Assembly: GCA_042408875.1 (NCBI GenBank)
Contig: JBHOQS010000015.1
Location: 79,299 to 143,298, forward strand
DNA from: Chloroflexota bacterium
GTDB lineage: Bacteria > Chloroflexota > UBA11872 > JBHOQS01
Direction: 5' to 3'
Length of the DNA stretch: 64,000 bases
Below the pieces are notes generated by a model. It was given only the letters and a program-made list of their open reading frames with translations. It was not told the DNA's origin and searched no databases. Positions within the stretch are counted from its first letter, which is position 1, and each line of letters starts with the position of its first letter. Shown piece after piece: positions 9,531 to 25,257 of this stretch. Made by a program: the position numbers and the translations under genes.

Positions 9531-10792
9531 CGTACCGCATCTGCCTGGTCTCCGGTGAGTACCCGCCCGCTCAGGGCGGTGTGGGCGATTACACTGCCTG
9601 CCTGGTCGCTGAGCTCGCGCGCCGGGGCCATGAAGTGCTCATCGCCACCTCGCGGCGCATTCCGGCATCGGCAGGCGGCAATGTTTTCGTATACCCGCTG
9701 GTCGAGCGGTGGAATGCCGCTGCCCTGCCAGTCCTGCAGGCTTTCCTGCGCCAGGTCCGCCCCGACGTCATCCACATTCAGTATCAACCTGCCGCCTACA
9801 GTATGGAGTGGGCGATCTGCCTGCTGCCAGCAATGATCCGGCACATGAACTGGCGTCCGCAGGCGCGGGTGGCTGGCAGCCCGCTCGGCCGGCCGCTTGC
9901 CGGCGCGCGTCCCCTGGTGGCAGTGACCTGCCATGATCTGCGTGTGCCCTGGCTCTTTCCGAAGGCCGGGCCGCTGCGCGAGCTGCCGCCGCGGCTCATG
10001 CGCTGCGCCAGTGATACCGTCATCGCCGTTGCCGCCGAAGACCTGGCGCTGCTTCGGGCGCGCGGCGAGGCGATGCGTGCAACGCATATTCCGATCGGCA
10101 GCAACATCGCGGTAGCGCCACCACCCGGCTACCGGCGCGAGGCATGGCGCGCCGCCCACGGCGTCGGCCCTGACGAGCAGCTCATCGGCTTTTTCGGCTT
10201 TGCGAACGCCAGCAAAGGGCTAGACACCTGGTGGCAGGCCCTGGAGGTGCTGCTCCACGCCGGGCGGCCGGTCCGGCCCGTGCTGATCGGCGGCACAGCT
10301 GGTGACAGCGACGCGACCAATGCGGGCCAGGTGCGGGCGTTGGAGCACTGGCGTAGCAGCAGCGCTGCCGGCCGGCGCGCCATTGTGACGGGCTTCCTCC
10401 CCCCGGCCGAGGTGTCGGCCTGGCTGCTGGCGTGTGACGCTTGCGCACTGCCCTTCCGCGATGGCGCGTCGCTTCGCCGCGGGAGCCTGCTCGCCGCCCT
10501 ACTCCACGGTGTTCCCGTGGTCACGACTTTCCCGCCCAGGGCTGGGACCGCGTTGGAGCCGGGCCGACATGTGCTGTGCGTGCCGCCCGACGACGCTAGC
10601 GCGCTGGCCGCTGCCCTGGCACAGCTCCTCGACGACTCCGAGCTCCGCGAGTGCCTTGCCCGGGCCGGCCGTGCACTGGCCGGGCAGTACACCTGGACCG
10701 CCATCGCCGCACAGCACTTGCGCCTGTACCAGGACCTCCTAGCGCGCCTTCGTCCCCACACCCCGAGCATCCCTGCAGAGGAGTGTCTATGA
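9527..10792 (+). CDS. Glycosyltransferase family 4 (GT-B, retaining)
   Basis: ORF 9461..10792 trimmed to ATG 9527 (MTYRICLVSGEYPPAQGGVGDY), ATGA overlap with upstream stop; C-terminal GT4-type nucleotide-sugar binding region. Confidence 0.85.
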   Translation: MTYRICLVSGEYPPAQGGVGDYTACLVAELARRGHEVLIATSRRIPASAGGNVFVYPLVERWNAAALPVLQAFLRQVRPDVIHIQYQPAAYSMEWAICLLPAMIRHMNWRPQARVAGSPLGRPLAGARPLVAVTCHDLRVPWLFPKAGPLRELPPRLMRCASDTVIAVAAEDLALLRARGEAMRATHIPIGSNIAVAPPPGYRREAWRAAHGVGPDEQLIGFFGFANASKGLDTWWQALEVLLHAGRPVRPVLIGGTAGDSDATNAGQVRALEHWRSSSAAGRRAIVTGFLPPAEVSAWLLACDACALPFRDGASLRRGSLLAALLHGVPVVTTFPPRAGTALEPGRHVLCVPPDDASALAAALAQLLDDSELRECLARAGRALAGQYTWTAIAAQHLRLYQDLLARLRPHTPSIPAEECL

Positions 10793-10811
10793 TCCCCGGT
10801 GAGGTGCGGCA

Positions 10812-13800: not shown

Positions 13801-13985
13801 TCACCGATCGCTATGAGCTCCAGCTCGCTGCAGACGCACCGCCTGGAATATACTGGCTGGAAGTCGGCATGTATGATGCCCGTACGCTGGTCCGGTTACC
13901 GCTCTACGCTGATGGCGCGCGGCTTGCGGACGACCGCGTGCTTCTGACACAGATCATGGTGCAGCCCGCCGCACCACTGCAATGA
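10812..13985 (+). CDS. GT-C fold glycosyltransferase, PMT/ArnT (GT39/GT83)-like, with large C-terminal extracytoplasmic domain
   Basis: 1057 aa; multi-helix N-terminal membrane domain with a DE motif in the first loop (WWDEALSVY); GTG start with GAGGTG upstream; C-terminal domain carries repeated PPG.Y.L..G.YD motifs. Confidence 0.75.
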   Translation: MHVRLPARSSSSRPVHLPGGATVGAPGARPPMVPLGVLALTLPAFLVRLWGIDWENLWWDEALSVYRASSTWPELLTNTIRIQGTETKDLHPPLYFVFLRLWMLGAGQSEFAARALSAMLGVLLVPLGAALAARLVGRRATLPAAALAAFSPFAVWYGQEARMYTLVPLLSALSVYVLLRALEEQQLRLYVAYLATTAALLYTHYFGLFLLAVHAGCVLLAARQQARRGLRWSLHPLRAPDRAVPLLAVLIGAPLTPYIVWRLTTGHEWGRRLISLPQILWDTWRVHLAGLAGGWHAEALSVAVAGACAVVALVLSRQRSPRPALALGPSSVGGNGHPSHTGHANSAGAVYRAAGPRWDMLAIYLLVPVVAIFLLSLIKPLFGHIRYMSIVSPALYSALGGAIASSRRGGVLLAGLAGLAMLYGNAAQRLDPASRREAYAAAMQFVERHSQPGDAVIFYANGSEPAFLYYVKRGLPWYSLPRPEHDRTDPRLIGEELAPIAQAHPRVWLVTLGAEMADPRGLIVEWLETHAVRSLSASFWGGGFGRALEVARYETRPVYGTARAEVTGLGAGGTSTWPGALLVQAASPGVNLGNALRLHQAVFIVDTGAGSATATYYWEVLRPVTNELVVSTRIVDGEGRTWAQRDSPPLNGSALASQWQAGTFVRDVHDLTLEDGMPPGHYYLVLEVYSLPAQRGLEIINEQGIGSGTLVRLGEFTTVAPAPAVPPRRLLPVRMGPIDLLEARLGTGSAKPGERLRVQGLVQLTGQGAAGVAGGAGAPQPVLRARLVDAQGHTVREASAPLGLLFGEDTGQDRGRGAVLGWKLDLLLPAGLPSGRYRAQVALDAPGARAAAIRWGRLLHPSVWRPAVSSDGGPATAPALRWPRPAGHPVGGGWVEVGEVLVQGRTPDLHSPRPQHVISVRVGEAIQLIGYDVSTTSIRPGETLYLTLYWRCTAAMETSYTVFTHLLDPSGRLRGQHDDIPHRGELPTTSWVAGEYITDRYELQLAADAPPGIYWLEVGMYDARTLVRLPLYADGARLADDRVLLTQIMVQPAAPLQ

Positions 13986-15952
13986 GCCGGCGTGCGGGTC
14001 GTGGAGGCAGCATGACGAGAACGGTGCTCAGCCCGCCTGAGCAAGCCGCGTACTCTGTACCGGCACAACAGGCCGCGCCTCATCCACCGCACCGTGCTGC
14101 CAGCGTGGCCGTAGCTCTCCTTGCTGTCTGGTGCTTCTTCGTCAGTGCGGTGTACAGCGTTGCCACGCCGATCTTTGAGGCGCCGGATGAGCCCTTCCAC
14201 TTCGCCTATGTCCGCTGGCTTGCCTCCGGCCGCGGCCTGCCCGTGGTCGATCCGCTCCGGCCGGAAGCCTGGCGCCAGGAAGGCACGCAGCCGCCGCTCT
14301 ACTACGCGATCGGGGCGCTGCTCACCAGTTGGCTTGATACGGGCGACCTCCCGCTCGTGCTCGCATTCAATCCGCACGCCCGTCTAGGCGTCCCCGACGC
14401 CACGGACAATCGCAATGCGGTGATCCATACCCCTCGTGAGCATTTTCCGTACCGAGGCTCCGTGTTCGTGGTGCATCTCCTGCGGCTGCTCTCTGCCGCG
14501 CTGGCCGCCCTCACCATCCTGGCCACGTACATGCTGGCGAGAGCGGTGTGGCCAGAGCGGCGGAGCGCGGCCCTGCTCGCTGCGGCGCTCGTGGCCGCGA
14601 ATCCTATGTTCCTATTCATCAGCGCATCAGTGAACAACGACGCGCTGGCTACGCTGCTTGCGACGACTTGCCTGACACTCACGGTATACGCCGCAGTGCG
14701 GCCCTCTCGCTGGGGTGCGCTGGCAGCCGGGGCAGCTGGTGGGCTGGCGCTGCTGGCGAAGCTGAACACTGCGTGGGTTATCCCACTGGCCGCGCTCTAT
14801 ACCGGCATGTGCACATACCGTCGGGAGGGGCCGGGCGCGGCGCTGCGCGCTGTCAGTGCGATGCTGCTGGCCGCCGTCGCGGTGGCCGGCTGGTGGCCGG
14901 CGCGCAATCTGCTGGTCTACGGCGACCTGGCTGGCCTGGCCGCGCACCTGGCCGTGATGGGCAGCGCGCCCCGCCGCGAGGTCGCCCAGCTTCTCGACGA
15001 GCTGGCAGGGCTGCGTTTCGCTTTCTGGGGCATCTTCGGCTGGTTCAATGTCCTGCCACCGCTCGCCTACTACATCCCCTTCTGGAGCGCCACCTGCGCG
15101 GGGCTAGTCGGGCTGGCCTTGCAGGTAGGTTCGGGACGCCGGGGCAGCTCACCCGTGACTGTGCCCGCGCGACCTGGCCAGGCGCCACTGTGGCTGCTTA
15201 CCGGGGCGGTCCTCTCGGCCCTGGGCAGCCTGCTGTGGTGGACCCTCCAGACACAGGGCGCACAAGGGCGGCTGCTCTTTCCGGCGTGGCCCGCTGCGGC
15301 GGTCCTGCTGGTCTACGGCTGGGAGCGGCTTGCCGGCGCGCGCCGGTTGCTCCCCTTCGGGAGCGCTCTCGTAGCTGCACAGGCCGTGCTCGCTGCCGTG
15401 ACCCCGCTCGCCGTGATCGCCCCGGCCTATCACCTTCCGGCCGACAGCCAGCCAGGGCTCGGCCAGGCCCGTCCCGCGGCAGCGGGGACCGGCGAGCTCT
15501 GGCGGTATGACGGCCGTATCGCTCTGCTCGCAGCGGAGCTTCCAGCCACTGTGCGCCCCGGCGAGCCAGTAGTAGTTACCCTGCACTGGCGAGCGCTGGA
15601 CGCGCCGGGCCGGAACCTGTCGGTGTACGTCCAAGTCCTGGCGCCGTCGGGCCGTAAAGTCGGGCAGCGCGATAGCTTCCCCGGCGGAGGCCTCGCACCC
15701 ACAGTCTACTGGCGTGCCGGTGATGAACTCATCGAGCGCGTTACCGTACCGCTGGAGCCCGACCTGCCACCTGGGGAGTATACGGTCCTGGTCGGCCTGT
15801 ACGATCTCGCGCCGCCGGCCCATCTGTTCCTGCCAGCGCCGGCCTCCAGCGACCGCATCCGTGACTCCCGCTACATCGTCGCCGGAACAGTGCGCCTCGT
15901 AGCTACGCAGCCCGAGGCAGGACAGGCTGCCGGGGAGGGCGGACGGCAGTGA
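13982..15952 (+). CDS. GT-C fold glycosyltransferase, PMT/ArnT-like
   Basis: 656 aa; ATGA overlap with upstream gene; first loop APDEPFHFAYV; multiple TM helices; C-terminal LPPGEYTVLVGLYD motif shared with the upstream paralog. Confidence 0.75.
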   Translation: MSRRAGRGGSMTRTVLSPPEQAAYSVPAQQAAPHPPHRAASVAVALLAVWCFFVSAVYSVATPIFEAPDEPFHFAYVRWLASGRGLPVVDPLRPEAWRQEGTQPPLYYAIGALLTSWLDTGDLPLVLAFNPHARLGVPDATDNRNAVIHTPREHFPYRGSVFVVHLLRLLSAALAALTILATYMLARAVWPERRSAALLAAALVAANPMFLFISASVNNDALATLLATTCLTLTVYAAVRPSRWGALAAGAAGGLALLAKLNTAWVIPLAALYTGMCTYRREGPGAALRAVSAMLLAAVAVAGWWPARNLLVYGDLAGLAAHLAVMGSAPRREVAQLLDELAGLRFAFWGIFGWFNVLPPLAYYIPFWSATCAGLVGLALQVGSGRRGSSPVTVPARPGQAPLWLLTGAVLSALGSLLWWTLQTQGAQGRLLFPAWPAAAVLLVYGWERLAGARRLLPFGSALVAAQAVLAAVTPLAVIAPAYHLPADSQPGLGQARPAAAGTGELWRYDGRIALLAAELPATVRPGEPVVVTLHWRALDAPGRNLSVYVQVLAPSGRKVGQRDSFPGGGLAPTVYWRAGDELIERVTVPLEPDLPPGEYTVLVGLYDLAPPAHLFLPAPASSDRIRDSRYIVAGTVRLVATQPEAGQAAGEGGRQ

Positions 15953-18408
15953 CCCGTGGCGACCTCGCGGCGATCGCCGCCGTGCTGCTGCTTCCGGTGG
16001 CGCTGTTCTGGCGCGTGCTGTTCGACGGCGCGACCATGCCGCCGGGCGGCGGTGACTTCGCCGCGTTCGTCTACCCCAACTTCGTCTTCGCCGCACGCTG
16101 GCTCCAGCAGGGCACACTGCCCCTGTGGAATCCCCACTTCTTTTCCGGCGCGCCGTTCCAGGCCGACGTGCAGACCGGGCTCTTCTATCCATTGAACCTC
16201 CTCGCGCTGCTCAGTGCACGGCCATTCACCTACCGGGCGCTTGAGCTTCTGGCCATCGCCCACTACAGCCTGACTGGCCTGCTTATGTGGCTCTACCTGC
16301 GGCGCCTGGGTGTCGGACAGCTTGCCTCCCTGGCCGGGGCTGCGGCGTGGCAGGCCTGCGGGTTCCTGGTCGCACACCTCGGGCATTACAACATGCTGGC
16401 TGTAGCGGCCTGGCTGCCTGGCCTGCTCCTTGCCCTGGAGGCCGCCCTGCCGGCCCTGCGAGGGCCCGCGCTCGGGCGCGCGGCGCGGCCGGTGGGAGCC
16501 GCTGCCCTGGTGTACGGGCTGTCGGCGCTGGCCGGACACACGCAGATGACACTGTACCTGGGCCTCGCCGGGACGATCTACCTGCCGGCTCGTCTGCTGA
16601 CTAGCCTGGATGCCGGACCGGCCGCCAGCGCCCTGCGCGGCAAGCTGCTGGCGCGCGGGCTCGCTGCTGCGGCGCTCGTGCTTATGCTCGGTGGCGGCAT
16701 CGCTGCGGTGCAGTACCTGCCCACCCTGGAGCTAGCGCGGGTCTCGGTACGCGCAGCTATCACGTTTGAGCAGGGCCGTGAGTTCGCCCTGCCTGCGGCC
16801 GCCCTGCTGCTGTTCCTGGCGCCGGGCTTCTTCGGCTCGGCCCAGACCGGGATATGGTATCTTTCCAGCCTGACCGAGAGCTACACCTACACCGGCATCG
16901 TCGTGCTGGTGCTCGCCTCCGCCGGGGTCCTGCTGCCACGCCCACAGGTGCGGCGCCTTGCGCTCCTGCTGGCAGCCCTGGCGGCGGGGAGCTTGCTGCT
17001 CGCCCTCGGCGATGAGACCGCGTTGTATGGATGGCTGTGGCGAGGGGTGCCGCTCTTCGATCGATTGCGTGCGGCAGGGCGTTTCCTGCTGCTCACGCAC
17101 GTTGCCCTTGCGACCCTCGCTGCGCTCGGGCTCGACGGCCTACGGCCGCCCTGGGGCACCCGCCACCGCCTGTTTGTTGATCGCCTGCTAGCGGCCTGGG
17201 GGCTGCTGCTGGCCGCCCTGGTCCTGCTGGCGCTGCCCACTGGCTATCTGGGTCTGGCGCTATATGCCAGCCGCGATGCCGTACTGGCCCAGCGAGCCGG
17301 CGCAGCACTGGGATCGCTGACGGTCGCCGCGCTGCTTCTAGGCCTGACCCTGGGGCTCCTGGCCCTCTACCGGTCCGGCCGGCTGGGCTGGACATCCTTC
17401 GCTGGACTCATGCTTGTCCTGTTGCTGGCCGACCTCCACGGCGCGAACGGGCGCTACAACCCTACGACTGCTGATATCCTCTCAGCCTACCGCCATCCCG
17501 AGGCTGTGCAGTTCCTTGCCTCCCAGCCAGGCATCTTCCGAGTGGACAGCGACACCGGCATCGACGATATCTGGCACCCCAGCCTGCCGGCGCTGGCTGG
17601 CTATGAGAGCACCTGGGGCCTGTTCAACCCGCTCGGCCTGGCCGAGTATCAGGTGCTGCTCAAGGGCCACCTCCGCGACCGCTCGAGCAGGCTCTACCAG
17701 TTCCTGAATGCACGCTATCTGGTGGTGAAGAAGGGCGAGCGCCCGCCCGGTGAAACGTTCCGTCCGGTGTTCCTCCAGGACCCGCGGGTCGACATTTACG
17801 AAAACGCCCAGGCGCTCCCGCGGGCGTTCGTCGTGTACGACGCTCAGGTCGTGGACGGCCGCGCGGCCGCGCTGGCAGCCATCACCACCCCCGGTTTCGA
17901 TCCGGCGCGCACGGTTGTGCTCGAACGCAGCCAGGGAGATATACCGGCCAGCGCTGCCCCGTCGCCGCAGCCCTCCTTCACACCCGCTGAGCTCGAACAG
18001 ACAGGACCTGGACGGCTGCGCGTGCGCGTGCAGGCAGCGCGTCCAGGCTGGCTGGTGCTGAGCGAGGTCTGGTACCGCGGTTGGCATGCGAGGGTGGACG
18101 GCCAAGCTGCACCGGTGCGACGTGCCAACTGGCTCTTCCGCGCCGTGCCGGTGGATACGGGAGAGCACATCGTCGAGCTCTGGTTTGCCCCTGCCACCTT
18201 CGTCGCAGGAGCGGCGATCAGTGTCGCATCGCTGCTGGCGTGCCTGGTCCTGCTCTCACCGCTCCCCCAGCGCCTGGGCAGAGGCAGAGTGCAGGCGCCG
18301 TCTTCAGGGCGCTGTACGCCAGATATGTGCGATCCGCTGCACGACGGTGATGCTCGAGATGATGGCCAGCGCAGCAATAGCGATTTCCAGCGTCGGCCGG
18401 CCGAGTAG
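15949..18408 (+). CDS. YfhO family membrane glycosyltransferase-like protein
   Basis: 819 aa; GTGA overlap with upstream gene; N-terminal FDGATMPPGGGDFAAFVYPNFVFAARWLQQGTLPLWNPHFFSGAPFQADVQTGLFYPLN is characteristic of YfhO; many TM helices. Confidence 0.8.
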   Translation: MTRGDLAAIAAVLLLPVALFWRVLFDGATMPPGGGDFAAFVYPNFVFAARWLQQGTLPLWNPHFFSGAPFQADVQTGLFYPLNLLALLSARPFTYRALELLAIAHYSLTGLLMWLYLRRLGVGQLASLAGAAAWQACGFLVAHLGHYNMLAVAAWLPGLLLALEAALPALRGPALGRAARPVGAAALVYGLSALAGHTQMTLYLGLAGTIYLPARLLTSLDAGPAASALRGKLLARGLAAAALVLMLGGGIAAVQYLPTLELARVSVRAAITFEQGREFALPAAALLLFLAPGFFGSAQTGIWYLSSLTESYTYTGIVVLVLASAGVLLPRPQVRRLALLLAALAAGSLLLALGDETALYGWLWRGVPLFDRLRAAGRFLLLTHVALATLAALGLDGLRPPWGTRHRLFVDRLLAAWGLLLAALVLLALPTGYLGLALYASRDAVLAQRAGAALGSLTVAALLLGLTLGLLALYRSGRLGWTSFAGLMLVLLLADLHGANGRYNPTTADILSAYRHPEAVQFLASQPGIFRVDSDTGIDDIWHPSLPALAGYESTWGLFNPLGLAEYQVLLKGHLRDRSSRLYQFLNARYLVVKKGERPPGETFRPVFLQDPRVDIYENAQALPRAFVVYDAQVVDGRAAALAAITTPGFDPARTVVLERSQGDIPASAAPSPQPSFTPAELEQTGPGRLRVRVQAARPGWLVLSEVWYRGWHARVDGQAAPVRRANWLFRAVPVDTGEHIVELWFAPATFVAGAAISVASLLACLVLLSPLPQRLGRGRVQAPSSGRCTPDMCDPLHDGDARDDGQRSNSDFQRRPAE

Positions 18409-18888
18409 CAACCCCAGGCCCAGCGCCACCACCCGCTCCGGACGCTGAAAGAGGCCGACCTTACACTCGAGCCCCAACCCCTCGGCGCGAGCACGGGCAT
18501 AGCTAACCATGAGCGAGCCGATCACCGCCATGTACGTGAGCGCCAGCTCCAGCAGCGAGCCACCGTGCTGGTAGTAGTATAGGAGCACGCCGAAGAACAG
18601 CGCCGCCTCGGAGATGCGGTCCATAGTTGAATCGAAGAAGGCCCCGAAAACAGTCTTCCTGTTCGCCACGCGGGCGAGCGCACCGTCGAGCATATCGAAG
18701 GCGCCGGAGAACAGCACCAGCGCGCCGCCCCAGGCGAGGTGGCCGCTAGCGATCACCGCAGCCGTGGCCAGGTTCAACAGGAAGCCGACCAGGGTCAGGG
18801 CGTTGGGCGAGACGCCGAGGCGCGCCAGCGGCGTAACGCTGCCCTCTGCCACGCGGCGAGCCAGATCAACCAGCCAGGAGGCGAACAT
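18304..18888 (-). CDS. CDP-alcohol phosphatidyltransferase (candidate phosphatidylinositol-phosphate synthase)
   Basis: FDMLDGALARVANRKTVFGAFFDSTMDRISE matches D-x2-DG-x2-AR...G-x3-D-x3-D; last gene of the PI/PIM operon. Confidence 0.85.
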   Translation of the reverse strand: MFASWLVDLARRVAEGSVTPLARLGVSPNALTLVGFLLNLATAAVIASGHLAWGGALVLFSGAFDMLDGALARVANRKTVFGAFFDSTMDRISEAALFFGVLLYYYQHGGSLLELALTYMAVIGSLMVSYARARAEGLGLECKVGLFQRPERVVALGLGLLLGRPTLEIAIAALAIISSITVVQRIAHIWRTAP

Positions 18889-18891
18889 AGG

Positions 18892-20058
18892 CTAGCCCGT
18901 GCTCGGCAGCAGCACACCCGGCACTGGGCGCCGCTGCGCAGCAAGGATGTCTTCGTAATAGGCCAGGATACGCCTGGCGATGCGGTCCCAGGCATAGGCC
19001 TGCACGCGGCGCCGGCCAGCCTCGGCCAGCCGGGCCCGATAGCCGTCATCGGCAATCAGACGGGTCAGCGCCACCGCCAGCGCCGTCGCATCCCCAGGCG
19101 GCACCAGCAGGCCGGCCTCACCCGCCGCCAGGACTGTGCGATAGCCCTCAATGTTAGAGGCCACCACCGGCTTGCCCGCCGCCATGGCCTCCAGCAGGAC
19201 GATCCCCTGGCTCTCCCGGCCGATCGCCGGGGCGCAGAACAGATCGCAGGACTTATAGTAGCGGATCTTGTCCTCGGGCGAGACGAAGCCCTTGAAGAGC
19301 ACGTCGGTCAGACCAGCCTGCCGCACGAACGTCTCGTAGGCCGCGCGCTGCTCGGCCTCGAAGGCGCCGACCACGAGCAGGCGCACGCTGGGGAATTGCT
19401 GCTTCACGTACGTGAGCGCCTGAAGTAGGTAGAGCAGCCCCTTGCGCTTCTCCAGGCGCCCTACGAAGAGGATGTTCAGGTAACCGTCGCGCAGCTCTGG
19501 GAAGGGCGCCAGGCGCGGGTCGGCGAACTGCTCCAGGTCCACGCCGTTGGGAATGATCTCGTACGTGGCCGGGAAGTACGTGCTGATGAACCGCATGGCC
19601 GCCGTCGAGACAGCAATGCGCCCATGAAGCTTGGCGAAGTAGCGCGCCAAGATCGGCTTACCCAGGCGGTAGCCGGTGTAGGAGCGGCGCGCCGCATGGA
19701 AGGTCGCCACGTTGACGGTCGTGGAATGGCGCAGCACAGTAATCGGTACTGCTGGCGCGAACGGCTCGTGTAGATGGATAATATCGAAGTTCTCGGCGGC
19801 AAGGATCTGCTTCACCCGCCGGGAGAGGGTGAGCGACAGGTTGATGCGCGCCACCGCCTGATTGGCCGGCACACCAATGATCCGCTCTCCCACGCGGTAG
19901 AGGTTGTCGCACGGGAGCTCACGCTCGTCTTTCGAGGACGGCGCCAGAATGCGCACCTGGTGGCCCAGCCGCCGAAACTGCTGGTCAAGGTGCCGGATGT
20001 GCTCGGTGACGCCGCCCGGATAAGCAAAGTCGTATGGCGAGACCAGGGCGATCTTCAT
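18892..20058 (-). CDS. pimA: GT4 glycosyltransferase, PimA-like (phosphatidylinositol mannosyltransferase candidate)
   Basis: ORF 18892..20139 trimmed to ATG 20058 (ATGA overlap with upstream stop). MKIALVSPYDFAYPGGVTEHIRHLDQQFRRLGHQVRILAPSS resembles the N-terminus of mycobacterial PimA as I recall it (recalled, not aligned); C-terminal GT4 motif region. Confidence 0.8.
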   Translation of the reverse strand: MKIALVSPYDFAYPGGVTEHIRHLDQQFRRLGHQVRILAPSSKDERELPCDNLYRVGERIIGVPANQAVARINLSLTLSRRVKQILAAENFDIIHLHEPFAPAVPITVLRHSTTVNVATFHAARRSYTGYRLGKPILARYFAKLHGRIAVSTAAMRFISTYFPATYEIIPNGVDLEQFADPRLAPFPELRDGYLNILFVGRLEKRKGLLYLLQALTYVKQQFPSVRLLVVGAFEAEQRAAYETFVRQAGLTDVLFKGFVSPEDKIRYYKSCDLFCAPAIGRESQGIVLLEAMAAGKPVVASNIEGYRTVLAAGEAGLLVPPGDATALAVALTRLIADDGYRARLAEAGRRRVQAYAWDRIARRILAYYEDILAAQRRPVPGVLLPSTG

Positions 20059-21017
20059 GGGCGTTCCCCTGCAAGTGTACCGGCGGCCGACTGCGACGCG
20101 GTCTCTTCTGCTGGCCACATGCGACGGAACAGCACCCACTGGCCGGGATCGGCTGCGATCGCCCGCTCCATCATCTCGGCTAATCGCTGCGTCCCGGCGA
20201 TAAGGTCGGCAAGCTCATCTGCCGTGCGCGGCACCTGGAAGAGCGGCTCCACCCAGGCATGGAAGCGGTCACCCGGCAGGCGCCTGGCAAAGGCCATCGA
20301 GATAGGTGCGCCGCTCAGGCGCGCCAGGCCCGCCGGACCTTCCGGCAATCTAGTCGTGCGCCCGAAGAAGCGCACCGGCACGCCCTGTCCCCCGCGGGGT
20401 AGGAAGTCTGCTGCGATGCCGACGATCTCGTTTCGGCGGAGGGCTCGCAGCAATGTGCGCAGACTATTGTGCTCCGGTACGATATGCAGGCCCTTGCTCC
20501 CACGCAGGTGCACTAGCAGTTCCCACAGCCGCTGAGAGCGAGGCACCTCCATCGGCACCCACGCCTGAAACCCGTGCAAGGCGAAGTACTGCCCTACCCA
20601 GTCGATGTTGCCGTAGTGGGCCATGCAGAGCACCAGCCCTTTCCCTTCGCCCAGCGCGGCCTCGATATGCTCCCACCCCTCTATATGTAACACCCGGTCG
20701 AGCTCTTCGGCACGCAGCAGCGGGATACGAAACAGGTCGACGTAGTTCCGTGCTGCGGTGCGAAAGCAGCGGCGCATCGTCTGGTGCACCAGCCGTCTCT
20801 GCTCCTGAGGCGGCAGCGTGGCGAAGACCACCTGAAGGTTCGCGCAGAGGTTCCGCCGCGCCGGACGGGCCGCATAGCAGGCCCCCAGCGCGGCGGCATC
20901 GGCCAGGGCATAGGCAGCCCGGCGCGGCAGCTTCGGGACCGCCCAGGCCCCGGCGCGAAAAAGCCAGTACACGACCGTGTCGCTCAGGCGCTCCGCGGCC
21001 ACGGCCGTCTCACTCAT
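20055..21017 (-). CDS. Lysophospholipid/lipid A-type acyltransferase (LpxL/HtrB/PatA-like)
   Basis: 323 aa; HYGNIDW acyltransferase motif region; overlaps both neighbours by 4 nt. Confidence 0.8.
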   Translation of the reverse strand: MSETAVAAERLSDTVVYWLFRAGAWAVPKLPRRAAYALADAAALGACYAARPARRNLCANLQVVFATLPPQEQRRLVHQTMRRCFRTAARNYVDLFRIPLLRAEELDRVLHIEGWEHIEAALGEGKGLVLCMAHYGNIDWVGQYFALHGFQAWVPMEVPRSQRLWELLVHLRGSKGLHIVPEHNSLRTLLRALRRNEIVGIAADFLPRGGQGVPVRFFGRTTRLPEGPAGLARLSGAPISMAFARRLPGDRFHAWVEPLFQVPRTADELADLIAGTQRLAEMMERAIAADPGQWVLFRRMWPAEETASQSAAGTLAGERP

Positions 21018-21955
21018 GCGAGGCCGGTGCCCGCCTCAGGCTGCGCCGCCGGCCCTGGCGCTTCCAGAAGCCCGCGTTCCGCCGGCTGGACCGGCGCACT
21101 GGGCCACATCGGCCGGAACATGTACCACTGATCGGGATGCAGGCGGATAATCCCCTCCAGGCCCTGGACGATCTGCTGCATCAGCGCCTGGACCTCCTGC
21201 TCGAAGTTGCCCGTCGAGGCCGGGATGATCGGCGGCGCAATCACGCCGGAGTAGGTGTTGTCTCGGTTCCGCCACATGCCCATCGGCACGACCACCGCGC
21301 CCGTCTTTAGCGCCAGCGCCGCGGCGCCAGCCGGCACGTTCGTGCGCTGTCTGAAAAAGGTCACCTCGACACCGCTGGCGTCAACGGGCCGGTCGATCAG
21401 GAGGCCGACGATCTGGTTTCGCCGCAGCACCCGGAAGAGCTTGCGCGCTGCGCCGTCCACGTCGATCACTTCGATGCCAGTGTGCCGGCGGATGCCCTGG
21501 ACCAGCTCGTTGAGCTGGGGCGGCTTGAAGGTATCCGCCACCACAGTGACTTTGAAGGTACGGGCCAGGAACGCCGCGCCCACATCCCAGTTCCCGAAGT
21601 GCCCGCTGACGAAGATGACCCCCTTCCCGTGCGCCAGCGCCTCCTCCAGGTGCTCCCACCCGCGCACGTGCCGGACAGCGCGGGCGATCTCTTCGGGCGA
21701 GAGGTGCCGCAGGCGCAAGAACTCCGCCAGGTACTTGGTGTAGTTGCGCATAGAGCGCCGGGCGACGAGCTTGACCTGCGGATGGTCGGGCGGCAGACCA
21801 AGCACCTGGGCCATGTTCTGCAAGGTGATCTGGCTCTTCTCGCGCCACAGCCAGTAGAAGCACTCGCCGGCGATTACTGCGACCAGGTAGACCAGCCAGC
21901 TAGGCAGTACCTTCACCAGCGCGCTGCACACGCGCATCAGTACGTAGGTAAGCAT
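21014..21955 (-). CDS. Lysophospholipid/lipid A-type acyltransferase (LpxL/HtrB/PatA-like), paralog
   Basis: 313 aa; GHFGNWD motif; ATGA-type overlap with downstream acyltransferase. Confidence 0.8.
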   Translation of the reverse strand: MLTYVLMRVCSALVKVLPSWLVYLVAVIAGECFYWLWREKSQITLQNMAQVLGLPPDHPQVKLVARRSMRNYTKYLAEFLRLRHLSPEEIARAVRHVRGWEHLEEALAHGKGVIFVSGHFGNWDVGAAFLARTFKVTVVADTFKPPQLNELVQGIRRHTGIEVIDVDGAARKLFRVLRRNQIVGLLIDRPVDASGVEVTFFRQRTNVPAGAAALALKTGAVVVPMGMWRNRDNTYSGVIAPPIIPASTGNFEQEVQALMQQIVQGLEGIIRLHPDQWYMFRPMWPSAPVQPAERGLLEAPGPAAQPEAGTGLA

Positions 21956-22012
21956 ACCTTTCCCACCGCTCCCGTCCTGCGCCCACTCCTAAAGCACACG
22001 CCGTCTACGAGT

Positions 22013-23236
22013 CTACGAGCACTCACCTGCGTCGTTGTGGGGGCGTGCCTGGTCAGCGCCTGCGCCTTCGCTACTGCCGGCCCGTGCTGAGCGGGGACGT
22101 GCCCGCTCGGCTGCCGGGCCGCCCTCGCGCTCCGCCGCCGCGCGCAGCGTTGCCGAAGTCAGGTTTGACTCGCCACGGATAAACGCCTCGACGAGATTAC
22201 GCGCCTCGGTATCGCTGTACTGCACCGGCGGCGACTTCATGAAATACGCCGATGGCCCTAGCACTGTGCCAGCCAGCCCGCGATCCATCGCCAGCTTGCA
22301 GCAGCGCACCGCATCGATCACGACACCAGCAGAGTTCGGTGAGTCCCACACCTCCAGCTTGAGCTCGATGTTCAGCGGCACATCACCGAACGAGCGCCCT
22401 TCCAACCGGATGTACGCCCATTTGCGGTCGGCCAGCCACGGCACGTAGTCGCTGGGGCCGATGTGCACGTTCTCGGACCCGATGTCGTAATCGAGCTGTG
22501 AGGTCACCGCGTTGGTCTTGCTTTCTTTCTTGGAGGCCAACCGTGCGCGCTCGAGCATGTTCAGGAAGTCGGTATTGCCGCCCACGTTGAGCTGGTAGGT
22601 GCGCTCCAGGCGCACGCCGCGCTCACGGAACAGGTTCACGAGTACGCGGTGAAGGATCGTGGCGCCCACCTGCGACTTAATGTCATCACCGATCACCGGC
22701 AAGCCACGGCTCTCGAAGCGCCGTTGCCAGTACCGCTCGCGCGCGATGAACACAGGGATGCAGTTGACAAAGCCACAGCCGGCGTCGAGCACCTGCTCGA
22801 CATACCACTTGGTCGCTTCTTCTGATCCCACTGGCAGGTAGTTCACCACCACGTCGGTCCCGGTGTCTCGTAGGATCTCCACGATGTCATCGGTTGAACC
22901 CGGCGCTTTCCGGATGACCCCGGCCAGATACTGGCCGATGCCGTCGTGCGTCATACCCCGATACACCGGCACACCCAGGTGCGGGACATTGGCGAACTTT
23001 ACGGTATTGTTCGGCGCGGTGAAGATCGCCTCGCTCAGATCGCGGCCCACCTTGCGTTCATCGATGTCGAACGCAGCGCTGAACTCGATATCGCCGATGT
23101 GATAGCCACCCAGATCAACATGCATGAGCCCCGGCACGAACTCATCGGTCGGGGCATGGCGATAGTAATGAACACCCTGGACCAGTGCCGACGCGCAGTT
23201 GCCGACGCCGACGATCGCCACGCGAACCTTGCTCAC
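22013..23236 (-). CDS. ino1: myo-inositol-1-phosphate synthase
   Basis: [28 protein letters not shown] ... [22 protein letters not shown] ... [19 protein letters not shown], typical of bacterial/archaeal MIPS; GTG start with AGGAGA RBS; about 50-aa C-terminal tail beyond the usual end. Confidence 0.88.
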
Positions 23237-23243
23237 CCACCGT

Positions 23244-23340
23244 CTCCTTTTATATTTATTTTATTATATTTATTTTTTTATTATATTATTTTTTATTATG
23301 CTATTTATGTTAGCTTGCATTATCTTTTGGTTGTATTATT
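23244..23340. promoter_or_regulatory. Extreme AT-rich island upstream of ino1 operon (probable promoter / unwinding element)
   Basis: About 95 bp almost entirely A/T in a GC-rich genome, directly upstream of the ino1 RBS and downstream of the ArsR gene stop. Confidence 0.5.
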
Positions 23341-23444
23341 GACTTCTCGTCCTAGCCCGGTTGCCCGGCGTCAAGCGTGCCGGGTATGCCCAGCACGGGC
23401 TCACGCCCAGGCAGTACGCCTGGCACACCGTCCAAGCCAGTGCC

Positions 23445-23831
23445 CTACCCAAGCGGCGCCTGTGCTTCCTCACCGACACGTGAAGTCCCGGCAGCGTTCT
23501 GGAGGCCTAGCTCGGGCACCGGCCCGCCTGCCGTGCCAGTGTAGACGAGCGCTTCGAGCTGCCGCAGGGCGCTGTGGAGGACAGCGTGGTCCAGCGTGCA
23601 GTAGACCTGCCGGCCCAGCTTCTGCGTGCGCACCAGCCCTGCCTTGCGCAGAATACGCAGGTGCCACGACATCAGCGGCTGGCTGATCCGCAGCGCACGC
23701 CCTAGCTCAGATACCGTCGTCTCGCCTGAGCGCGCCAGATGCTGCACCACCCGCAGGCGCGAGCGATCGCCCAGCGCCTTGAACAGCGCAGCCAGCTCGC
23801 GCAGCGCAGCCGCATCAGCCCCGCGTGACAT
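23445..23831 (-). CDS. ArsR/SmtB family transcriptional regulator
   Basis: LKALGDRSRLRVVQHLARSGETTVSELGRALRISQPLMSWHLRILRKAGLV winged-helix HTH typical of ArsR. Confidence 0.8.
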   Translation of the reverse strand: MSRGADAAALRELAALFKALGDRSRLRVVQHLARSGETTVSELGRALRISQPLMSWHLRILRKAGLVRTQKLGRQVYCTLDHAVLHSALRQLEALVYTGTAGGPVPELGLQNAAGTSRVGEEAQAPLG

Positions 23832-24195
23832 GCCGAACCGAACTCTTCCAGGTGACTCGTTCCGTCGCGCCTACCATCTCTCCGGTGCGCGCCCAGCCCG
23901 GATGCATCAAGCGGCGTTGATCAAACAAGTATTGAATAAACGACTATTAATTAAACACTCGTTGATGCATTCCAGCGTGTATGCTACCGTAGCGCTGGAC
24001 GCCTGTCAAGCACAGCGCCTGCGGCCGTGGGTCAGGGCGAGGGCTGCCCGGCGCGCCGCCGGCAGCGCCCGCTGGAGGTGCCAGCGGGCCGCTTGCATCC
24101 CTCGCCAGAACGGCCTACCATAGCAGCCGAAGGCTAGCTGCCGAACGCTGGCGGCTACAGGCTACACATCAGGAACGCAGTGCGATTGGCTCGCC

Positions 24196-24231
24196 GCAGC
24201 GATCGCTGGACCGGCAGCGATCGCTGGACCG
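24196..24231. repeat. Two tandem 18-bp repeats each containing the perfect palindrome CAGCGATCGCTG
   Basis: gcagcgatcgctggaccg x2 immediately upstream of the GGAGG RBS of the E1 alpha gene. Confidence 0.7.
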
Positions 24232-24252
24232 GCAGCGAAGGAGGCAGGACCG

Positions 24253-25257
24253 ATGGCCACGACTGTGCCCCGCACGCAGCTTGAGATCCAGGAGCTCGGC
24301 CTCGACCGCGCCAGGCTGGCCTGGATGTACCGCACGATGCTGCGCATCCGCCGCTTCGAGGAGCGGGTGAAGCAGCTCTTCCGGGACGCTCGCCTGCGTG
24401 GCAGCGTGCACCTGTATATCGGCGAAGAGGCCGTGGCGACCGGTGCCTGCGCCGCGTTGCGCCCGGACGATTACATCACCAGCACCCACCGCGGCCATGG
24501 CCACTGTATCGCCAAGGGGGGCCGGCTCGATCGTATGATGGCCGAGCTCTACGGACGTGAGACCGGCTACTGCAAGGGCAAGGGCGGCTCGATGCACATC
24601 GCCGACCTGGACTCCGGGATCCTGGGGGCCAACGGGATCGTCGGCGCAGGCATCCCTATCGCCGCCGGCGCGGCCCTGGGGGCACGCATTTTGGGGCGAG
24701 ACCGAGTCGCGCTCGCCTTCTTCGGCGATGGGGGTGCCAACCAGGGCGCCTTCCACGAGGGTATCAACTTCGCCGCGGTGCAGAAGCTGCCGGTCGTGTT
24801 CGTCTGCGAGAATAACCTGTACTCGCAGACCACACCGAACAAGTACACTATCGCCGGCGGCTCAGTAGCGCGCCGCGCCGAGGCATACGGCATCCCCGGC
24901 GAGCAGGTGGATGGCCAGGACGTGCTGGCAGTATACCGCGCGGTTAAGGCGGCCGTGGACCGCGCCCGCGCCGGCCAGGGGCCCTCGCTGATCGAGTGCT
25001 TGACCTACCGCTTCGAGGGGCACTTCCTGGGCGACCCCGAGACGTACCGCTCGCGTGAAGAGGTGCAGGAGTGGCGCGAGAAGCGTGATCCGATCCCGCT
25101 CTTCGCCGCCAAGCTGATCGCGGCCGGCCAGTTCTCGCAGGCCGAGCTCGACCAGATGGACCAGGAGGTGCTGGCCGAGGTCGAGGACGCGGTGCGCTTC
25201 GCCGAGAGCAGCCCGCTGCCACGCCTCGAGGCGCTCTGGGAAGATGTGTATGCCTGA
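24253..25257 (+). CDS. Thiamine-diphosphate-dependent 2-oxoacid (pyruvate/acetoin-type) dehydrogenase E1 alpha subunit
   Basis: GDGGANQGAFHEGINFAA ... YRFEGH TPP-binding E1 alpha signatures. Confidence 0.9.
   Translation: MATTVPRTQLEIQELGLDRARLAWMYRTMLRIRRFEERVKQLFRDARLRGSVHLYIGEEAVATGACAALRPDDYITSTHRGHGHCIAKGGRLDRMMAELYGRETGYCKGKGGSMHIADLDSGILGANGIVGAGIPIAAGAALGARILGRDRVALAFFGDGGANQGAFHEGINFAAVQKLPVVFVCENNLYSQTTPNKYTIAGGSVARRAEAYGIPGEQVDGQDVLAVYRAVKAAVDRARAGQGPSLIECLTYRFEGHFLGDPETYRSREEVQEWREKRDPIPLFAAKLIAAGQFSQAELDQMDQEVLAEVEDAVRFAESSPLPRLEALWEDVYA

What the first reader, a model, noticed from the sequence alone, without database searches (positions are those of the whole stretch)
18304..23236. 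Five-gene phosphatidylinositol / PIM-type operon (ino1, acyltransferase x2, pimA-like, CDP-alcohol phosphatidyltransferase)
All five genes are on the minus strand with 4-nt start/stop overlaps at 21014..21017 and 20055..20058 and a 3-nt gap at 18889..18891, implying one translationally coupled operon. The PimA-like N-terminus resembles mycobacterial PimA, and the components match the mycobacterial pgsA1-patA-pimA module with ino1 added. The duplicated acyltransferase suggests two distinct acylation steps.
Basis: partly seen in the sequence, partly recalled or inferred. Interest (0 to 1): 0.65.

Follow-up and report, generated by a model that had tools for sequence, protein, structure and literature searches.

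The report
Chloroflexota inositol-lipid mannoside operon
An uncultured Chloroflexota bacterium carries one tightly packed operon whose enzymes match those mycobacteria use to make phosphatidylinositol and its first acylated mannoside, which suggests this "mycobacterial" glycolipid chemistry also exists in a second phylum, though no lipid has been measured.

Summary
Five minus-strand genes (ino1, two PatA-like acyltransferases, a PimA-like GT4, a PIP-synthase-type transferase) lie at 18304-23236. The junctions are ATGA, ATGA and a 3-nt gap.
- The transferase scores 155-162 bits with PIP/AIP synthases, against 63 (DIPP synthase) and 31 (PgsA). It keeps the Arg pair specific to PIP synthases.
- The GT4 scores 232 bits against M. 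smegmatis PimA, against 91 for the next GT4. It keeps Tyr9, the IP-binding loop, Arg196, Lys202, Glu274, Ser275 and Glu282. Asp253 is lost.

The organism is an uncultured Chloroflexota. In 80 related genomes, pimA-pips adjacency holds in 65 of 67 loci and ino1 lies upstream in 37 of 56. The acyltransferases number 0, 1 or 2.

The two acyltransferases are ancient paralogues in a fixed order, and both keep the catalytic residues. Either type can be the only one in a cluster, so "two sequential steps" is plausible but unproven.

No PIP phosphatase is present in the window. Relatives often carry a PHP phosphoesterase directly upstream of pimA.

Verdict: a credible, uncharacterised variant of the known PI/PIM pathway. 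Sugar donor, acylation sites and product are inferred.

The parts
22013..23236 (-). ino1: myo-inositol-1-phosphate (inositol-3-phosphate) synthase, 407 aa, GTG start. About 50 aa of low-complexity C-terminal tail lie beyond the family model.
   Evidence: Pfam Inos-1-P_synth 130 bits. NCBIfam TIGR03450 532 bits, E 5.9e-160, below the equivalog cutoff of 638. 69-79% identical homologues sit upstream of pimA in 37 of 56 related loci.
21014..21955 (-). AT1: PatA-like acyl-CoA acyltransferase (LPLAT/LpxL superfamily), 313 aa. It is the first of two paralogues.
   Evidence: Pfam Lip_A_acyltrans 155 bits. Best NCBIfam hit is PIM acyltransferase PRK07920 at 196 bits (cutoff 209); the next hit is 138 bits. 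PDB: PatA 108 bits against LpxM 51. It keeps His126, Arg164, Trp130 and an Asp at the Glu200 position.
20055..21017 (-). AT2: second, more divergent PatA-like acyltransferase, 320 aa. Its start overlaps the AT1 stop (ATGA).
   Evidence: NCBIfam PRK07920 155 bits; the next hit is 95 bits. PDB: PatA 68 bits against LpxM 35. 33% identical to AT1. The AlphaFold model (pLDDT 90.6) matches PatA best (TM 0.85 normalised to PatA, E 1.6e-19), then LpxM at 0.67. His126, Arg164 and an Asp at position 200 are kept; the acceptor-pocket aromatics differ.
18892..20058 (-). pimA-like GT4 glycosyltransferase, 388 aa. Its ATG overlaps the AT2 stop (ATGA).
   Evidence: PDB: M. smegmatis PimA 231.7 bits, E 1.6e-67, full length; the next GT4 scores 91 bits, MshA 66-69 and PimB' 57. 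37% identity to PimA over 365 aligned residues. Tyr9, Arg68, His118, Arg196, Arg201, Lys202, Glu274, Ser275 and Glu282 are invariant in 120 Chloroflexota homologues.
18304..18888 (-). pips: phosphatidylinositol-phosphate synthase-type CDP-alcohol phosphatidyltransferase, 194 aa, starting 3 nt after the pimA stop.
   Evidence: Pfam CDP-OH_P_transf. NCBIfam: AIP synthase 162.5, Bacteroides-type PIPS 159.6 and PIPSynth 155.4 bits, against DIPP synthase 63 and PgsA 31. PDB: R. salmoninarum and M. tuberculosis PIP synthases about 94-96 bits. Signature D65xxDGxxAR...GxxxDxxxD90 plus R152 and R185, which align to RsPIPS R153 and R191.
23445..23831 (-). ArsR/SmtB-family winged-helix regulator, 128 aa. 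It is the probable regulator of the cluster and lacks the classical CXC metal site.
   Evidence: Pfam HTH_20/HTH_5. NCBIfam HTH_metalloreg 82.6 bits. Homologues sit at the head of the cluster in 13 related loci (cluster 17). A conserved TTGACA-N17-TAATATATAA promoter and palindromic element lie upstream of these genes.
23237..23444 (-). ArsR-ino1 intergenic region. It holds a promoter-like site (CTAACA-17-AATAAT, 23313-23285), a 90% A+T stretch (23249-23328) and an AAGGAG ribosome-binding site before the GTG.
   Evidence: Sequence, promoter scan, composition. Related loci carry sigma-70-like promoters upstream of ino1.

Best explanation
The block is a single operon for de novo synthesis of phosphatidylinositol by the bacterial 'PIP' route, followed by conversion of that lipid into an acylated phosphatidylinositol glycoside, most probably a mono-mannoside (AcPIM1-like). 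The inferred steps are as follows. (1) Ino1 cyclises glucose-6-phosphate to L-myo-inositol-1-phosphate. (2) The PIP synthase transfers the phosphatidyl group of CDP-diacylglycerol to inositol-1-phosphate, giving PIP. (3) A phosphatase not encoded in the operon removes the phosphate to give PI. [quoted passage not shown] (5) AT1 and AT2, PatA-like acyl-CoA-dependent acyltransferases with a His/Asp charge relay, acylate the glycolipid. AT1 probably acts like PatA (6-OH of the mannose). AT2 acts at a second site or with a different acyl chain. The overlapping stop and start codons couple translation of AT1, AT2 and PimA, and PIPS follows 3 nt later. The upstream ArsR-family protein probably controls transcription. 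What is shown: gene presence, order and coupling; family membership by sequence and fold; conservation of catalytic and substrate-binding residues; and phylum-wide synteny. What is inferred: every substrate, the sugar, the acylation sites and the regulator's role.
For: PimA is by far the best structural relative of the GT4 (232 bits against 91), and PimA-specific features are kept: Tyr9, the extended beta3-alpha3 IP loop and Ser275. Also kept are Arg196, Lys202, Lys256, Glu274 and Glu282, which are essential in M. tuberculosis PimA. The PIPS keeps the 8-residue CDP-alcohol signature and the Arg153/Arg191 pair that recognises inositol phosphate. Both acyltransferases keep His126 and Arg164 and carry Asp at the Glu200 position, and the AT2 model superposes best on PatA. 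Junctions are given. For synteny, pips follows pimA in 65 of 67 loci, ino1 lies upstream in 37 of 56, and the full five-gene order recurs in L006, L007, L029, L038 and L083. PI is a reported major polar lipid of cultured Chloroflexota (PMC12453558).
Against: No lipid or enzyme data exist for this organism. All five proteins score below the NCBIfam equivalog cutoffs. Asp253 of the PimA nucleotide-base loop is not conserved (Pro here), Lys256 is Leu in 37 of 120 homologues, and Gln18 is Thr, so the donor could differ from GDP-mannose. No PIP phosphatase, PimB'-type second mannosyltransferase or GDP-mannose synthesis gene was found in the 64-kb window. Most related clusters have no acyltransferase (40 of 56), and single-acyltransferase clusters carry either type. 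No paper in the searchable library reports PIMs in Chloroflexota.
Confidence: 0.7

Rival explanations
1. The pathway is the same, but the GT4 transfers a sugar other than mannose (for example glucose or GlcNAc from a UDP-sugar). The product would then be an acylated glycosyl-PI that is not a PIM in the strict sense.
For: The loop that contacts the nucleotide base in PimA differs: Asp253 is Pro in the window and variable in the family, Lys256 is Leu in 37 of 120 homologues, and a family-specific Glu sits at position 254 in 100 of 120. Identity to PimA is only 37%. Donor specificity in GT4 enzymes is known to shift between relatives (general knowledge).
Against: Ser275, which in PimA packs against the mannose and is Gly in PimB', is invariant, as are Glu274, Gly277 and Glu282. 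The margin over every non-PimA GT4 structure is large.
Confidence: 0.15
2. The two acyltransferases are not PIM acyltransferases. They would be general lysophospholipid or glycerolipid acyltransferases, or lipid A-type late acyltransferases as existing automatic annotation says, and merely co-located with PI synthesis genes.
For: JGI names the homologues 'KDO2-lipid IV(A) lauroyltransferase' or 'lauroyl/myristoyl acyltransferase'. Both score below the PRK07920 cutoff. The PatA mannose-stacking aromatics are only partly kept, especially in AT2. 40 of 56 related clusters lack them.
Against: The best HMM and best structure for both are PatA, well ahead of the LpxL/LpxM models, which score 20-140 bits against cutoffs of 248-540. 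Arg164, which hydrogen-bonds the mannose O2 in PatA, is invariant in all 47 homologues. Whenever they are present in a cluster they lie between ino1 or ArsR and pimA, often with overlapping codons. No lipid A genes were seen in the window.
Confidence: 0.1
3. The cluster makes a soluble inositol-phosphate compatible solute (di-myo-inositol phosphate or a mannosylated derivative) or a mycothiol-like inositol glycoside, rather than a membrane lipid.
For: ino1 plus a CDP-alcohol transferase plus a glycosyltransferase is also the parts list for DIP or mannosyl-DIP. Close relatives were recovered from metagenomes only.
Against: DIPP synthase scores 63 bits against a cutoff of 580, and there is no cytidylyltransferase domain or gene. 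MshA scores 87 bits against a cutoff of 462 and 66-69 bits in the PDB, against 232 for PimA. Two membrane-type lipid acyltransferases are translationally coupled to the GT4.
Confidence: 0.03

Closest known systems
Mycobacterial pgsA1-patA-pimA operon (M. tuberculosis Rv2612c-Rv2611c-Rv2610c), with ino1 encoded elsewhere
   Same: The same three enzyme families are clustered: PIP synthase, a PatA-type acyl-CoA acyltransferase and the PimA GT4. Catalytic and substrate-binding residues are conserved. The inferred chemistry is the same: Ins-1-P + CDP-DAG -> PIP -> PI -> PIM1 -> AcPIM1.
   Different: The phylum differs (Chloroflexota). The gene order is reversed (AT-AT-pimA-pips instead of pgsA1-patA-pimA). 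ino1 is inside the operon. There are two paralogous acyltransferases instead of one. An ArsR-family gene sits at the head. All proteins fall below the actinobacterial equivalog cutoffs, at 27-37% identity. PimA Asp253 and Gln18 are not kept.
Bacteroides thetaiotaomicron inositol-lipid cluster BT_1522-BT_1526 (PMC9246714)
   Same: MIPS and a PIP synthase are clustered, and PI is made through a PIP intermediate. The window PIPS scores 159.6 bits on the BT_1523-type model.
   Different: The Bacteroides cluster has a PgpA-type PIP phosphatase and an inositol-phosphoceramide synthase, and it has no glycosyltransferase or PatA-like acyltransferase. The window has no PgpA-type gene. Some relatives have a PHP phosphoesterase instead.
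Archaetidylinositol-phosphate synthase pathway of Archaea
   Same: The window transferase scores highest on the archaeal AIP synthase model (162.5 bits, cutoff 180). The acceptor, inositol-1-phosphate, is the same.
   Different: The archaeal enzyme uses CDP-archaeol. Nothing in the window indicates ether lipids, and donor specificity cannot be read from the sequence.
Lipid A late acyltransferases LpxL/LpxM
   Same: The same LPLAT fold and HX4D/E catalytic motif; the AT2 model aligns to LpxM with TM 0.67.
   Different: Scores are much weaker than to PatA. The genomic context is inositol lipid, not lipid A.

Membership tests
PimA (GT4 phosphatidylinositol alpha-1,2-mannosyltransferase) | Full-length similarity to characterised PimA clearly above other GT4 enzymes | tested here: met
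   231.7 bits, E 1.6e-67, residues 1-374, against M. smegmatis PimA. The next GT4 scores 91 bits, MshA 66-69 and PimB' 57. Identity is 37% over 365 aligned residues.
PimA (GT4 phosphatidylinositol alpha-1,2-mannosyltransferase) | Tyr9 in the beta1-alpha1 loop (strictly conserved in PimA; Asp in PimB'), the extended beta3-alpha3 'IP-binding' loop, and Ser275 (Gly in PimB') | tested here: met
   Features as described in PMC2988379. Tyr9 is present in 117 of 117 ungapped homologues and Ser275 in 120 of 120. The loop region aligns without the 10-residue PimB' deletion.
PimA (GT4 phosphatidylinositol alpha-1,2-mannosyltransferase) | Residues essential by mutagenesis in M. tuberculosis PimA: R196, K202, D253, K256, E274, E282 | tested here: inconclusive
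   R196, K202, E274 and E282 are invariant. K256 is kept in the window (82 of 120 in the family). D253 is Pro in the window and variable in the family, with Glu at +1 in 100 of 120.
PimA (GT4 phosphatidylinositol alpha-1,2-mannosyltransferase) | [quoted passage not shown] | not testable with these tools
   Needs an enzyme assay or lipid analysis.
PatA (PIM acyltransferase, LPLAT superfamily) | Catalytic His126 (HX4D motif) and the Glu200 charge-relay partner | tested here: met
   His is present in 47 of 47 homologues. Position 200 is acidic in all (Asp in 46 of 47), a conservative change from Glu. The window motifs are HFGNWD in AT1 and HYGNID in AT2.
PatA (PIM acyltransferase, LPLAT superfamily) | Mannose-binding residues Tyr83, Trp84, Trp130, Phe160 and Arg164 | tested here: inconclusive
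   Arg164 is present in 47 of 47. AT1 keeps Tyr83 (in the window) and Trp130 (20 of 24). AT2 has Asn83-Tyr84 (20 of 23) and a variable position 130. Phe160 is aliphatic in both.
PatA (PIM acyltransferase, LPLAT superfamily) | NCBIfam equivalog PRK07920 score at or above its cutoff (209 bits) | tested here: not met
   AT1 scores 195.7 and AT2 155.3 bits. PRK07920 is the best family for both, but both are below the cutoff.
PatA (PIM acyltransferase, LPLAT superfamily) | PatA-like fold | tested here: met
   The AT2 AlphaFold model (pLDDT 90.6, pTM 0.87) has PatA chains as its top 12 PDB hits (TM 0.80-0.86 normalised to the target), then LpxM at 0.67. AT1 was not modelled.
Bacterial PIP synthase (PgsA1 / class I CDP-alcohol phosphotransferase) | Signature D1xxD2G1xxAR...G2xxxD3xxxD4 | tested here: met
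   DMLDGALARVANRKTVFGAFFDSTMD at residues 65-90; the signature is as given in PMC4634129.
Bacterial PIP synthase (PgsA1 / class I CDP-alcohol phosphotransferase) | The Arg pair (RsPIPS R153 in an RxxR motif, and R191) that recognises inositol phosphate, described as absolutely conserved in PIP synthases | tested here: met
   R149-P-E-R152 and R185 align to RSER (R150/R153) and R191 of the R. salmoninarum enzyme.
Bacterial PIP synthase (PgsA1 / class I CDP-alcohol phosphotransferase) | NCBIfam equivalog cutoffs (PIPSynth 170; AIP synthase 180; BT_1523-type 350) | tested here: not met
   155.4, 162.5 and 159.6 bits: close to, but below, the first two cutoffs. It belongs to the PIPS/AIPS family but is not an equivalog of any curated subgroup.
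DIPP synthase (considered and rejected) | Fused or adjacent inositol-1-phosphate cytidylyltransferase, and a DIPPS-type transferase domain | tested here: not met
   63.3 bits against a cutoff of 580. No nucleotidyltransferase domain occurs in the protein or in the window genes scanned.
PgsA phosphatidylglycerophosphate synthase (considered and rejected) | TIGR00560 / PRK10832 score | tested here: not met
   31.3 bits (cutoff 109) and 23.5 bits (cutoff 304).
myo-Inositol-1-phosphate synthase | Inos-1-P_synth domain and full-length match to bacterial INO1 | tested here: met
   Pfam 130.5 bits (cutoff 27). TIGR03450 532 bits over model positions 1-355, below the actinobacterial equivalog cutoff of 638.

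The most novel reading that the evidence does not exclude
Chloroflexota, a mostly uncultured phylum, would make multiply acylated PI-mannosides. AT2 would be a dedicated second-site (for example inositol) acyltransferase, an activity whose enzyme was still unidentified in mycobacteria as of 2022 (PMC9490103). The PHP phosphoesterase found next to pimA in relatives would be the PIP phosphatase. The convergent GT2/GT4/GT-C cluster beside the operon would extend the PI-mannoside anchor into a lipomannan-like lipoglycan.
Probability: 0.12. Interest if true: 0.7.

Novelty: new variant of a known kind. Interest (0 to 1): 0.42.

Why it matters
PIMs and their biosynthetic module are usually treated as a hallmark of mycobacteria and related Actinobacteria. 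Here the module recurs across Chloroflexota: about 600 pattern matches in species-representative genomes, with the top 80 loci spanning Dehalococcoidia, Anaerolineae, Chloroflexia, Thermomicrobia and Ktedonobacteria, plus one Dormibacteraceae genome. That predicts a class of glycosyl-PI lipids in a second, environmentally abundant phylum, and may explain some of the 'unidentified glycolipids/phospholipids' reported for isolates. It also offers natural experiments: clusters with 0, 1 or 2 PatA paralogues, and clusters with or without a PHP phosphoesterase. These could help assign two steps that were open in the papers read here, the PIP phosphatase outside Bacteroides and the second PIM acylation. 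A practical point: homologues of both acyltransferases are currently auto-annotated as lipid A lauroyltransferases, which is probably wrong.

Tried and rejected
- **Rfam scan.** Scanning 17500-24800 at E<=1 gave only a sub-threshold chance hit, so no riboswitch or known RNA lies in the ino1 leader.
- **A+T-rich ino1 leader.** I asked whether it is a conserved element. It is not: 40 related loci, and the relative whose PimA is 88% identical, lack it.
- **PIP phosphatase.** I looked in the window for a PgpA-type, HAD or PHP gene. tblastn with 21 PHP proteins found nothing, and Pfam scans of the other window genes found only an IMPase-family gene 11 kb away.
- **Neighbouring glycosyltransferase cluster.** I tested whether the convergent cluster (6828-18408) is a PimB'/PimE/Mpt-type extension system. 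Its proteins hit only generic families. It co-occurs with the operon only in close relatives and not in the 80 species-level loci. The link is therefore unsupported.
- **Literature.** Ten full-text searches found no paper linking Chloroflexi or Chloroflexota with PimA or PIMs. They also gave no confirmation of my recollection that Thermomicrobia contain phospho-acylmannoside diol lipids, so that point remains memory only.
- **Internal terminators.** The scan found none above chance.
- **Rejected readings.** DIP synthesis, mycothiol synthesis, PgsA and lipid A acylation were considered and rejected (see the membership tests).

Full report
**Observation**

| Gene | Coordinates | Length |
|---|---|---|
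| ino1 | 22013-23236 | 407 aa (GTG start) |
| AT1 | 21014-21955 | 313 aa |
| AT2 | 20055-21017 | 320 aa |
| GT4 | 18892-20058 | 388 aa |
| CDP-alcohol phosphatidyltransferase | 18304-18888 | 194 aa |

The mechanical ORF for the GT4 extends to a GTG at 20139. The ATG at 20058 is the real start. An independent gene call on an identical metagenomic contig uses it, and all homologues begin MKIALVSPYD.

Read directly from the sequence, the junctions are:
- GCATGAGTG, an ATGA overlap between AT1 and AT2.
- CCATGAAG, an ATGA overlap between AT2 and the GT4.
- TAGCCTATG, a 3-nt gap between the GT4 and the transferase.
- A 57-nt gap between ino1 and AT1.

Third-position G+C is 0.78-0.87 for all five genes, in a window of about 66% G+C. 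No terminator-like site above chance lies inside the block.

**What the genes are**

Pfam gives Inos-1-P_synth, Lip_A_acyltrans twice, the Glycos_transf_1/Glyco_transf_4 domains, and CDP-OH_P_transf.

*Acyltransferases.* With NCBIfam, the best model for both is the PIM acyltransferase PRK07920. AT1 scores 196 bits and AT2 155 bits, against a cutoff of 209. The lipid A LpxL/LpxM models lie far below their own cutoffs.

*Phosphatidyltransferase.* It scores 162.5 bits (archaeal AIP synthase), 159.6 (Bacteroides-type PIPS) and 155.4 (PIPSynth). DIPP synthase scores 63.3 and PgsA 31.3.

*Solved structures.*
- The GT4 hits M. smegmatis PimA over its full length at 231.7 bits (E 1.6e-67). The next GT4 scores 91 bits, MshA 66-69 and PimB' 57.
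- AT1 and AT2 hit PatA at 108 and 68 bits, against LpxM at 51 and 35.
- The transferase hits the R. salmoninarum and M. tuberculosis PIP synthases at about 94-96 bits.

**Residue-level tests**

*PIP synthase.* The transferase has the full class I signature D65xxDGxxAR...GxxxDxxxD90. It also has R149xxR152 and R185, which align to RsPIPS R150/R153 and R191. PMC4634129 describes that Arg pair as binding the inositol phosphate, absolutely conserved in PIP synthases and absent from eukaryotic PI synthases.

*PimA.* The window protein is 37% identical to M. smegmatis PimA over 365 aligned residues.
- PMC2988379 lists what separates PimA from PimB': Tyr9, the extended beta3-alpha3 IP-binding loop, and Ser275. 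All three are present, and Tyr9 and Ser275 are invariant in 120 Chloroflexota homologues.
- Six residues are essential by mutagenesis in M. tuberculosis PimA (PMC13533801). R196, K202, E274 and E282 are invariant in the family. K256 is kept in the window.
- D253 is not kept. It is Pro here and variable in the family, with a family-specific Glu one position later.

The second refutation condition is therefore not met. The donor nucleotide-sugar, however, remains an inference.

*PatA.* PMC8519569 names His126 as the general base, Glu200 as its charge-relay partner, and Tyr83, Trp84, Trp130, Phe160 and Arg164 as mannose contacts. Across 47 Chloroflexota homologues:
- His126 and Arg164 are invariant, and position 200 is always acidic (Asp).
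- AT1-type proteins keep Trp130 in 20 of 24.
- AT2-type proteins have Asn83-Tyr84 in 20 of 23 and a variable position 130.

An AlphaFold model of AT2 (pLDDT 90.6) matches PatA best (TM 0.80-0.86 normalised to PatA), then LpxM at 0.67.

**Organism and distribution**

The window is from an uncultured bacterium. An identical sequence occurs in Logan assemblies of SRR24490439. AT2 also has an identical copy on a 451-kb NCBI contig. The named relatives of the GT4 are Chloroflexota MAGs. JGI already labels many of them 'phosphatidylinositol alpha-mannosyltransferase'.

The best 80 loci are almost all labelled Chloroflexota: Dehalococcoidia, Anaerolineae, Chloroflexia, Thermomicrobia and Ktedonobacter. 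One is Dormibacteraceae, and two are labelled Proteobacteria.

| Feature in those loci | Count |
|---|---|
| pips follows pimA on the same strand | 65 of 67 with enough flank |
| ino1 within 4 kb upstream | 37 of 56 |
| 0 / 1 / 2 PatA-like genes | 40 / 9 / 7 of 56 |

The conserved core is therefore ino1-pimA-pips. The tandem-acyltransferase form in the window is a minority elaboration. It recurs in L006, L007, L029 and L038. It also recurs in L083, a relative whose PimA is 88% identical. L083 shares the whole neighbourhood, from the 2-oxoacid dehydrogenase genes (PDH-type E1/E2) to the glycosyltransferase cluster.

**The two acyltransferases**

AT1 and AT2 are 33% identical. I built a neighbour-joining tree of the 47 homologues, rooted on a PatA fragment. 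Every first-position gene groups with AT1, and every second-position gene falls in one clade with AT2. The duplication therefore predates the divergence of these lineages, and the gene order has been kept since.

Clusters with a single acyltransferase complicate this:
- L003, L010, L012-L014 and L016 carry an AT1-type gene.
- L011, L018, L051, L056, L065 and L081 carry an AT2-type gene.

A strict AT1-then-AT2 sequence is therefore not required. Different acyl chains or different sites are equally possible. In mycobacteria, the enzyme that acylates the inositol of AcPIMs was unidentified as of 2022. It was also predicted to be unrelated to PatA (PMC9490103). AT2 as an inositol acyltransferase is an attractive speculation and nothing more.

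**Missing and additional parts**

The PIP-to-PI phosphatase is not in the operon. PMC4634129 calls it unidentified in bacteria. In Bacteroides it is the PgpA-type BT_1525 (PMC9246714). No PgpA-type gene is in the window.

In 20 of the 80 related loci, a PHP-domain phosphoesterase of about 250 aa lies directly upstream of pimA, often with a 4-nt overlap. It is a candidate for this step, but it has no homologue in the window. An IMPase-family gene lies 11 kb away at 34465-35376.

An ArsR/SmtB-family gene (23445-23831) heads the cluster here and in 13 related loci (cluster 17). A conserved TTGACA-N17-TAATATATAA promoter with a palindromic element lies upstream of those genes. I treat it as the probable regulator; this is inferred.

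**Mechanism, as inferred**

1. Ino1 makes inositol-1-phosphate.
2. PIPS joins it to CDP-DAG, giving PIP.
3. An unassigned phosphatase gives PI.
4. The PimA-like GT4 glycosylates the inositol 2-OH, probably with mannose.
5. AT1 and AT2 acylate the product from acyl-CoA.

Only the genes, their coupling, their family membership and their residue conservation are shown. All substrates and products are inferred. My confidence is about 0.7.

The rivals are:
- A different sugar donor (0.15).
- Acyltransferases with another lipid substrate (0.10).
- A soluble inositol solute or a mycothiol-like product (0.03).

**Comparison and novelty**

The closest known system is the mycobacterial pgsA1-patA-pimA operon. 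The window differs from it in these ways:
- The phylum is different.
- The gene order is different.
- ino1 is included in the operon.
- There is a second PatA paralogue.
- An ArsR-type gene sits at the head.
- Scores are sub-equivalog throughout.

PI is a known major lipid of Chloroflexota isolates, alongside 'unidentified glycolipids and phospholipids' (PMC12453558). I found no paper in the searchable library connecting the phylum with PIMs or PimA.

I rate it a new variant of a known kind, of moderate interest. It is predictable from standard annotation. It is also uncharacterised, phylum-wide and readily testable.

Noticed in passing
Related loci, e.g. L007 9147-10004, L008 9243-10004, L038 9225-10004, L045 9276-10004 (pimA starts at 10001): In 20 of the 80 related Chloroflexota loci, a PHP-domain metallophosphoesterase of about 250 aa sits directly upstream of pimA, often overlapping it by 4 nt. 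It hits Pfam PHP + PHP_C, and NCBIfam CehA/McbA metallohydrolase at 72-79 bits. It is a candidate for the PIP phosphatase step. It has no homologue in this window.
   Followed up: partly
window 23249-23345 (minus strand, directly upstream of the ino1 GTG): This stretch is 87-90% A+T (90% over 23249-23328). It is the only place in the 64-kb, 66% G+C window where a 100-nt span exceeds 80% A+T. It has a loose 15-nt periodicity, a promoter-like CTAACA-17-AATAAT and an AAGGAG ribosome-binding site. It is not conserved in 40 related loci or in the relative whose PimA is 88% identical, and its function is unknown.
   Followed up: partly
window 23902-24009 (minus strand, upstream of the ArsR-family gene); L083 6010-6165: A promoter-like TTGACA-17-TAGCAT (24009-23981) is followed by three direct repeats at 15-nt spacing: GTTTAATTAAT, GTTTATTCAAT and GTTTGATCAAC (23956-23916). 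They are bracketed by the inverted repeat ATGCATCAA/TTGATGCAT (23970-23962 and 23910-23902). By eye, the close relative L083 has about seven such 15-nt units, although Tandem Repeats Finder did not report that array. More distant loci share TTGACA-N17-TAATATATAA...TTTAT. This is a likely operator array.
   Followed up: partly
window 6828-18408 (+ strand), convergent with the operon: A glycosylation cluster of three GT2 genes, one GT4 and three large GT-C-type membrane proteins (PMT_2 1057 aa, DUF2142/PMT 656 aa, YfhO 819 aa). It is conserved next to the operon only in close relatives (L001, L083-L085). All family hits are generic, so a link to PI-mannoside extension is unsupported.
   Followed up: partly
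window 18304-18408: The YfhO-like ORF (+ strand, ending at 18408) overlaps the 3' end of pips (- strand) by 105 nt. In the relative L083, the YfhO gene is 34 aa shorter and ends 4 nt from pips, without overlap.
   Followed up: partly
window 34465-35376 (-): An inositol-monophosphatase-family gene (Pfam Inositol_P 199 bits; NCBIfam SuhB-type 166 bits and HisN 157 bits, both below cutoff) lies 11 kb from the operon. Whether it acts on inositol phosphates is unknown.
   Followed up: partly
window 61127-61494 (-): A tmRNA gene (Rfam RF00023, 182.7 bits; ARAGORN tag peptide AKPQYSYALAA).
   Followed up: yes
window 24196-24238: A perfect 18-nt tandem repeat, GCAGCGATCGCTGGACCG, in 2.4 copies. It lies in the divergent intergenic region between the ArsR-family gene and the 2-oxoacid dehydrogenase E1-alpha gene (which starts at 24253).
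   Followed up: no
Homologues P0122-P0160 of AT2; cluster members P0163 and P0168: Public automatic annotation names the PatA-like acyltransferases 'KDO2-lipid IV(A) lauroyltransferase' or 'lauroyl/myristoyl acyltransferase', while the adjacent GT4 is named 'phosphatidylinositol alpha-mannosyltransferase'. The lipid A label is probably a misannotation.
   Followed up: partly
L006 (JBLNDL010000011.1) and L021 (JAJPKF010000019.1): Two MAGs labelled Sphingomonadaceae and Proteobacteria carry Chloroflexota-type clusters whose PimA is 53-57% identical to the window's. L006 has ino1, both acyltransferases, pimA and pips; L021 has pimA and pips. Mis-binning, mislabelling or gene transfer could explain this; it was not resolved.
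   Followed up: no
window 22013-22160 (C-terminus of ino1): ino1 carries a low-complexity Ala/Arg/Gly/Glu-rich tail of about 50 aa beyond the end of the MIPS family model. The gene is 404 aa in the relative L083, so the tail seems to be kept in close relatives.
   Followed up: no
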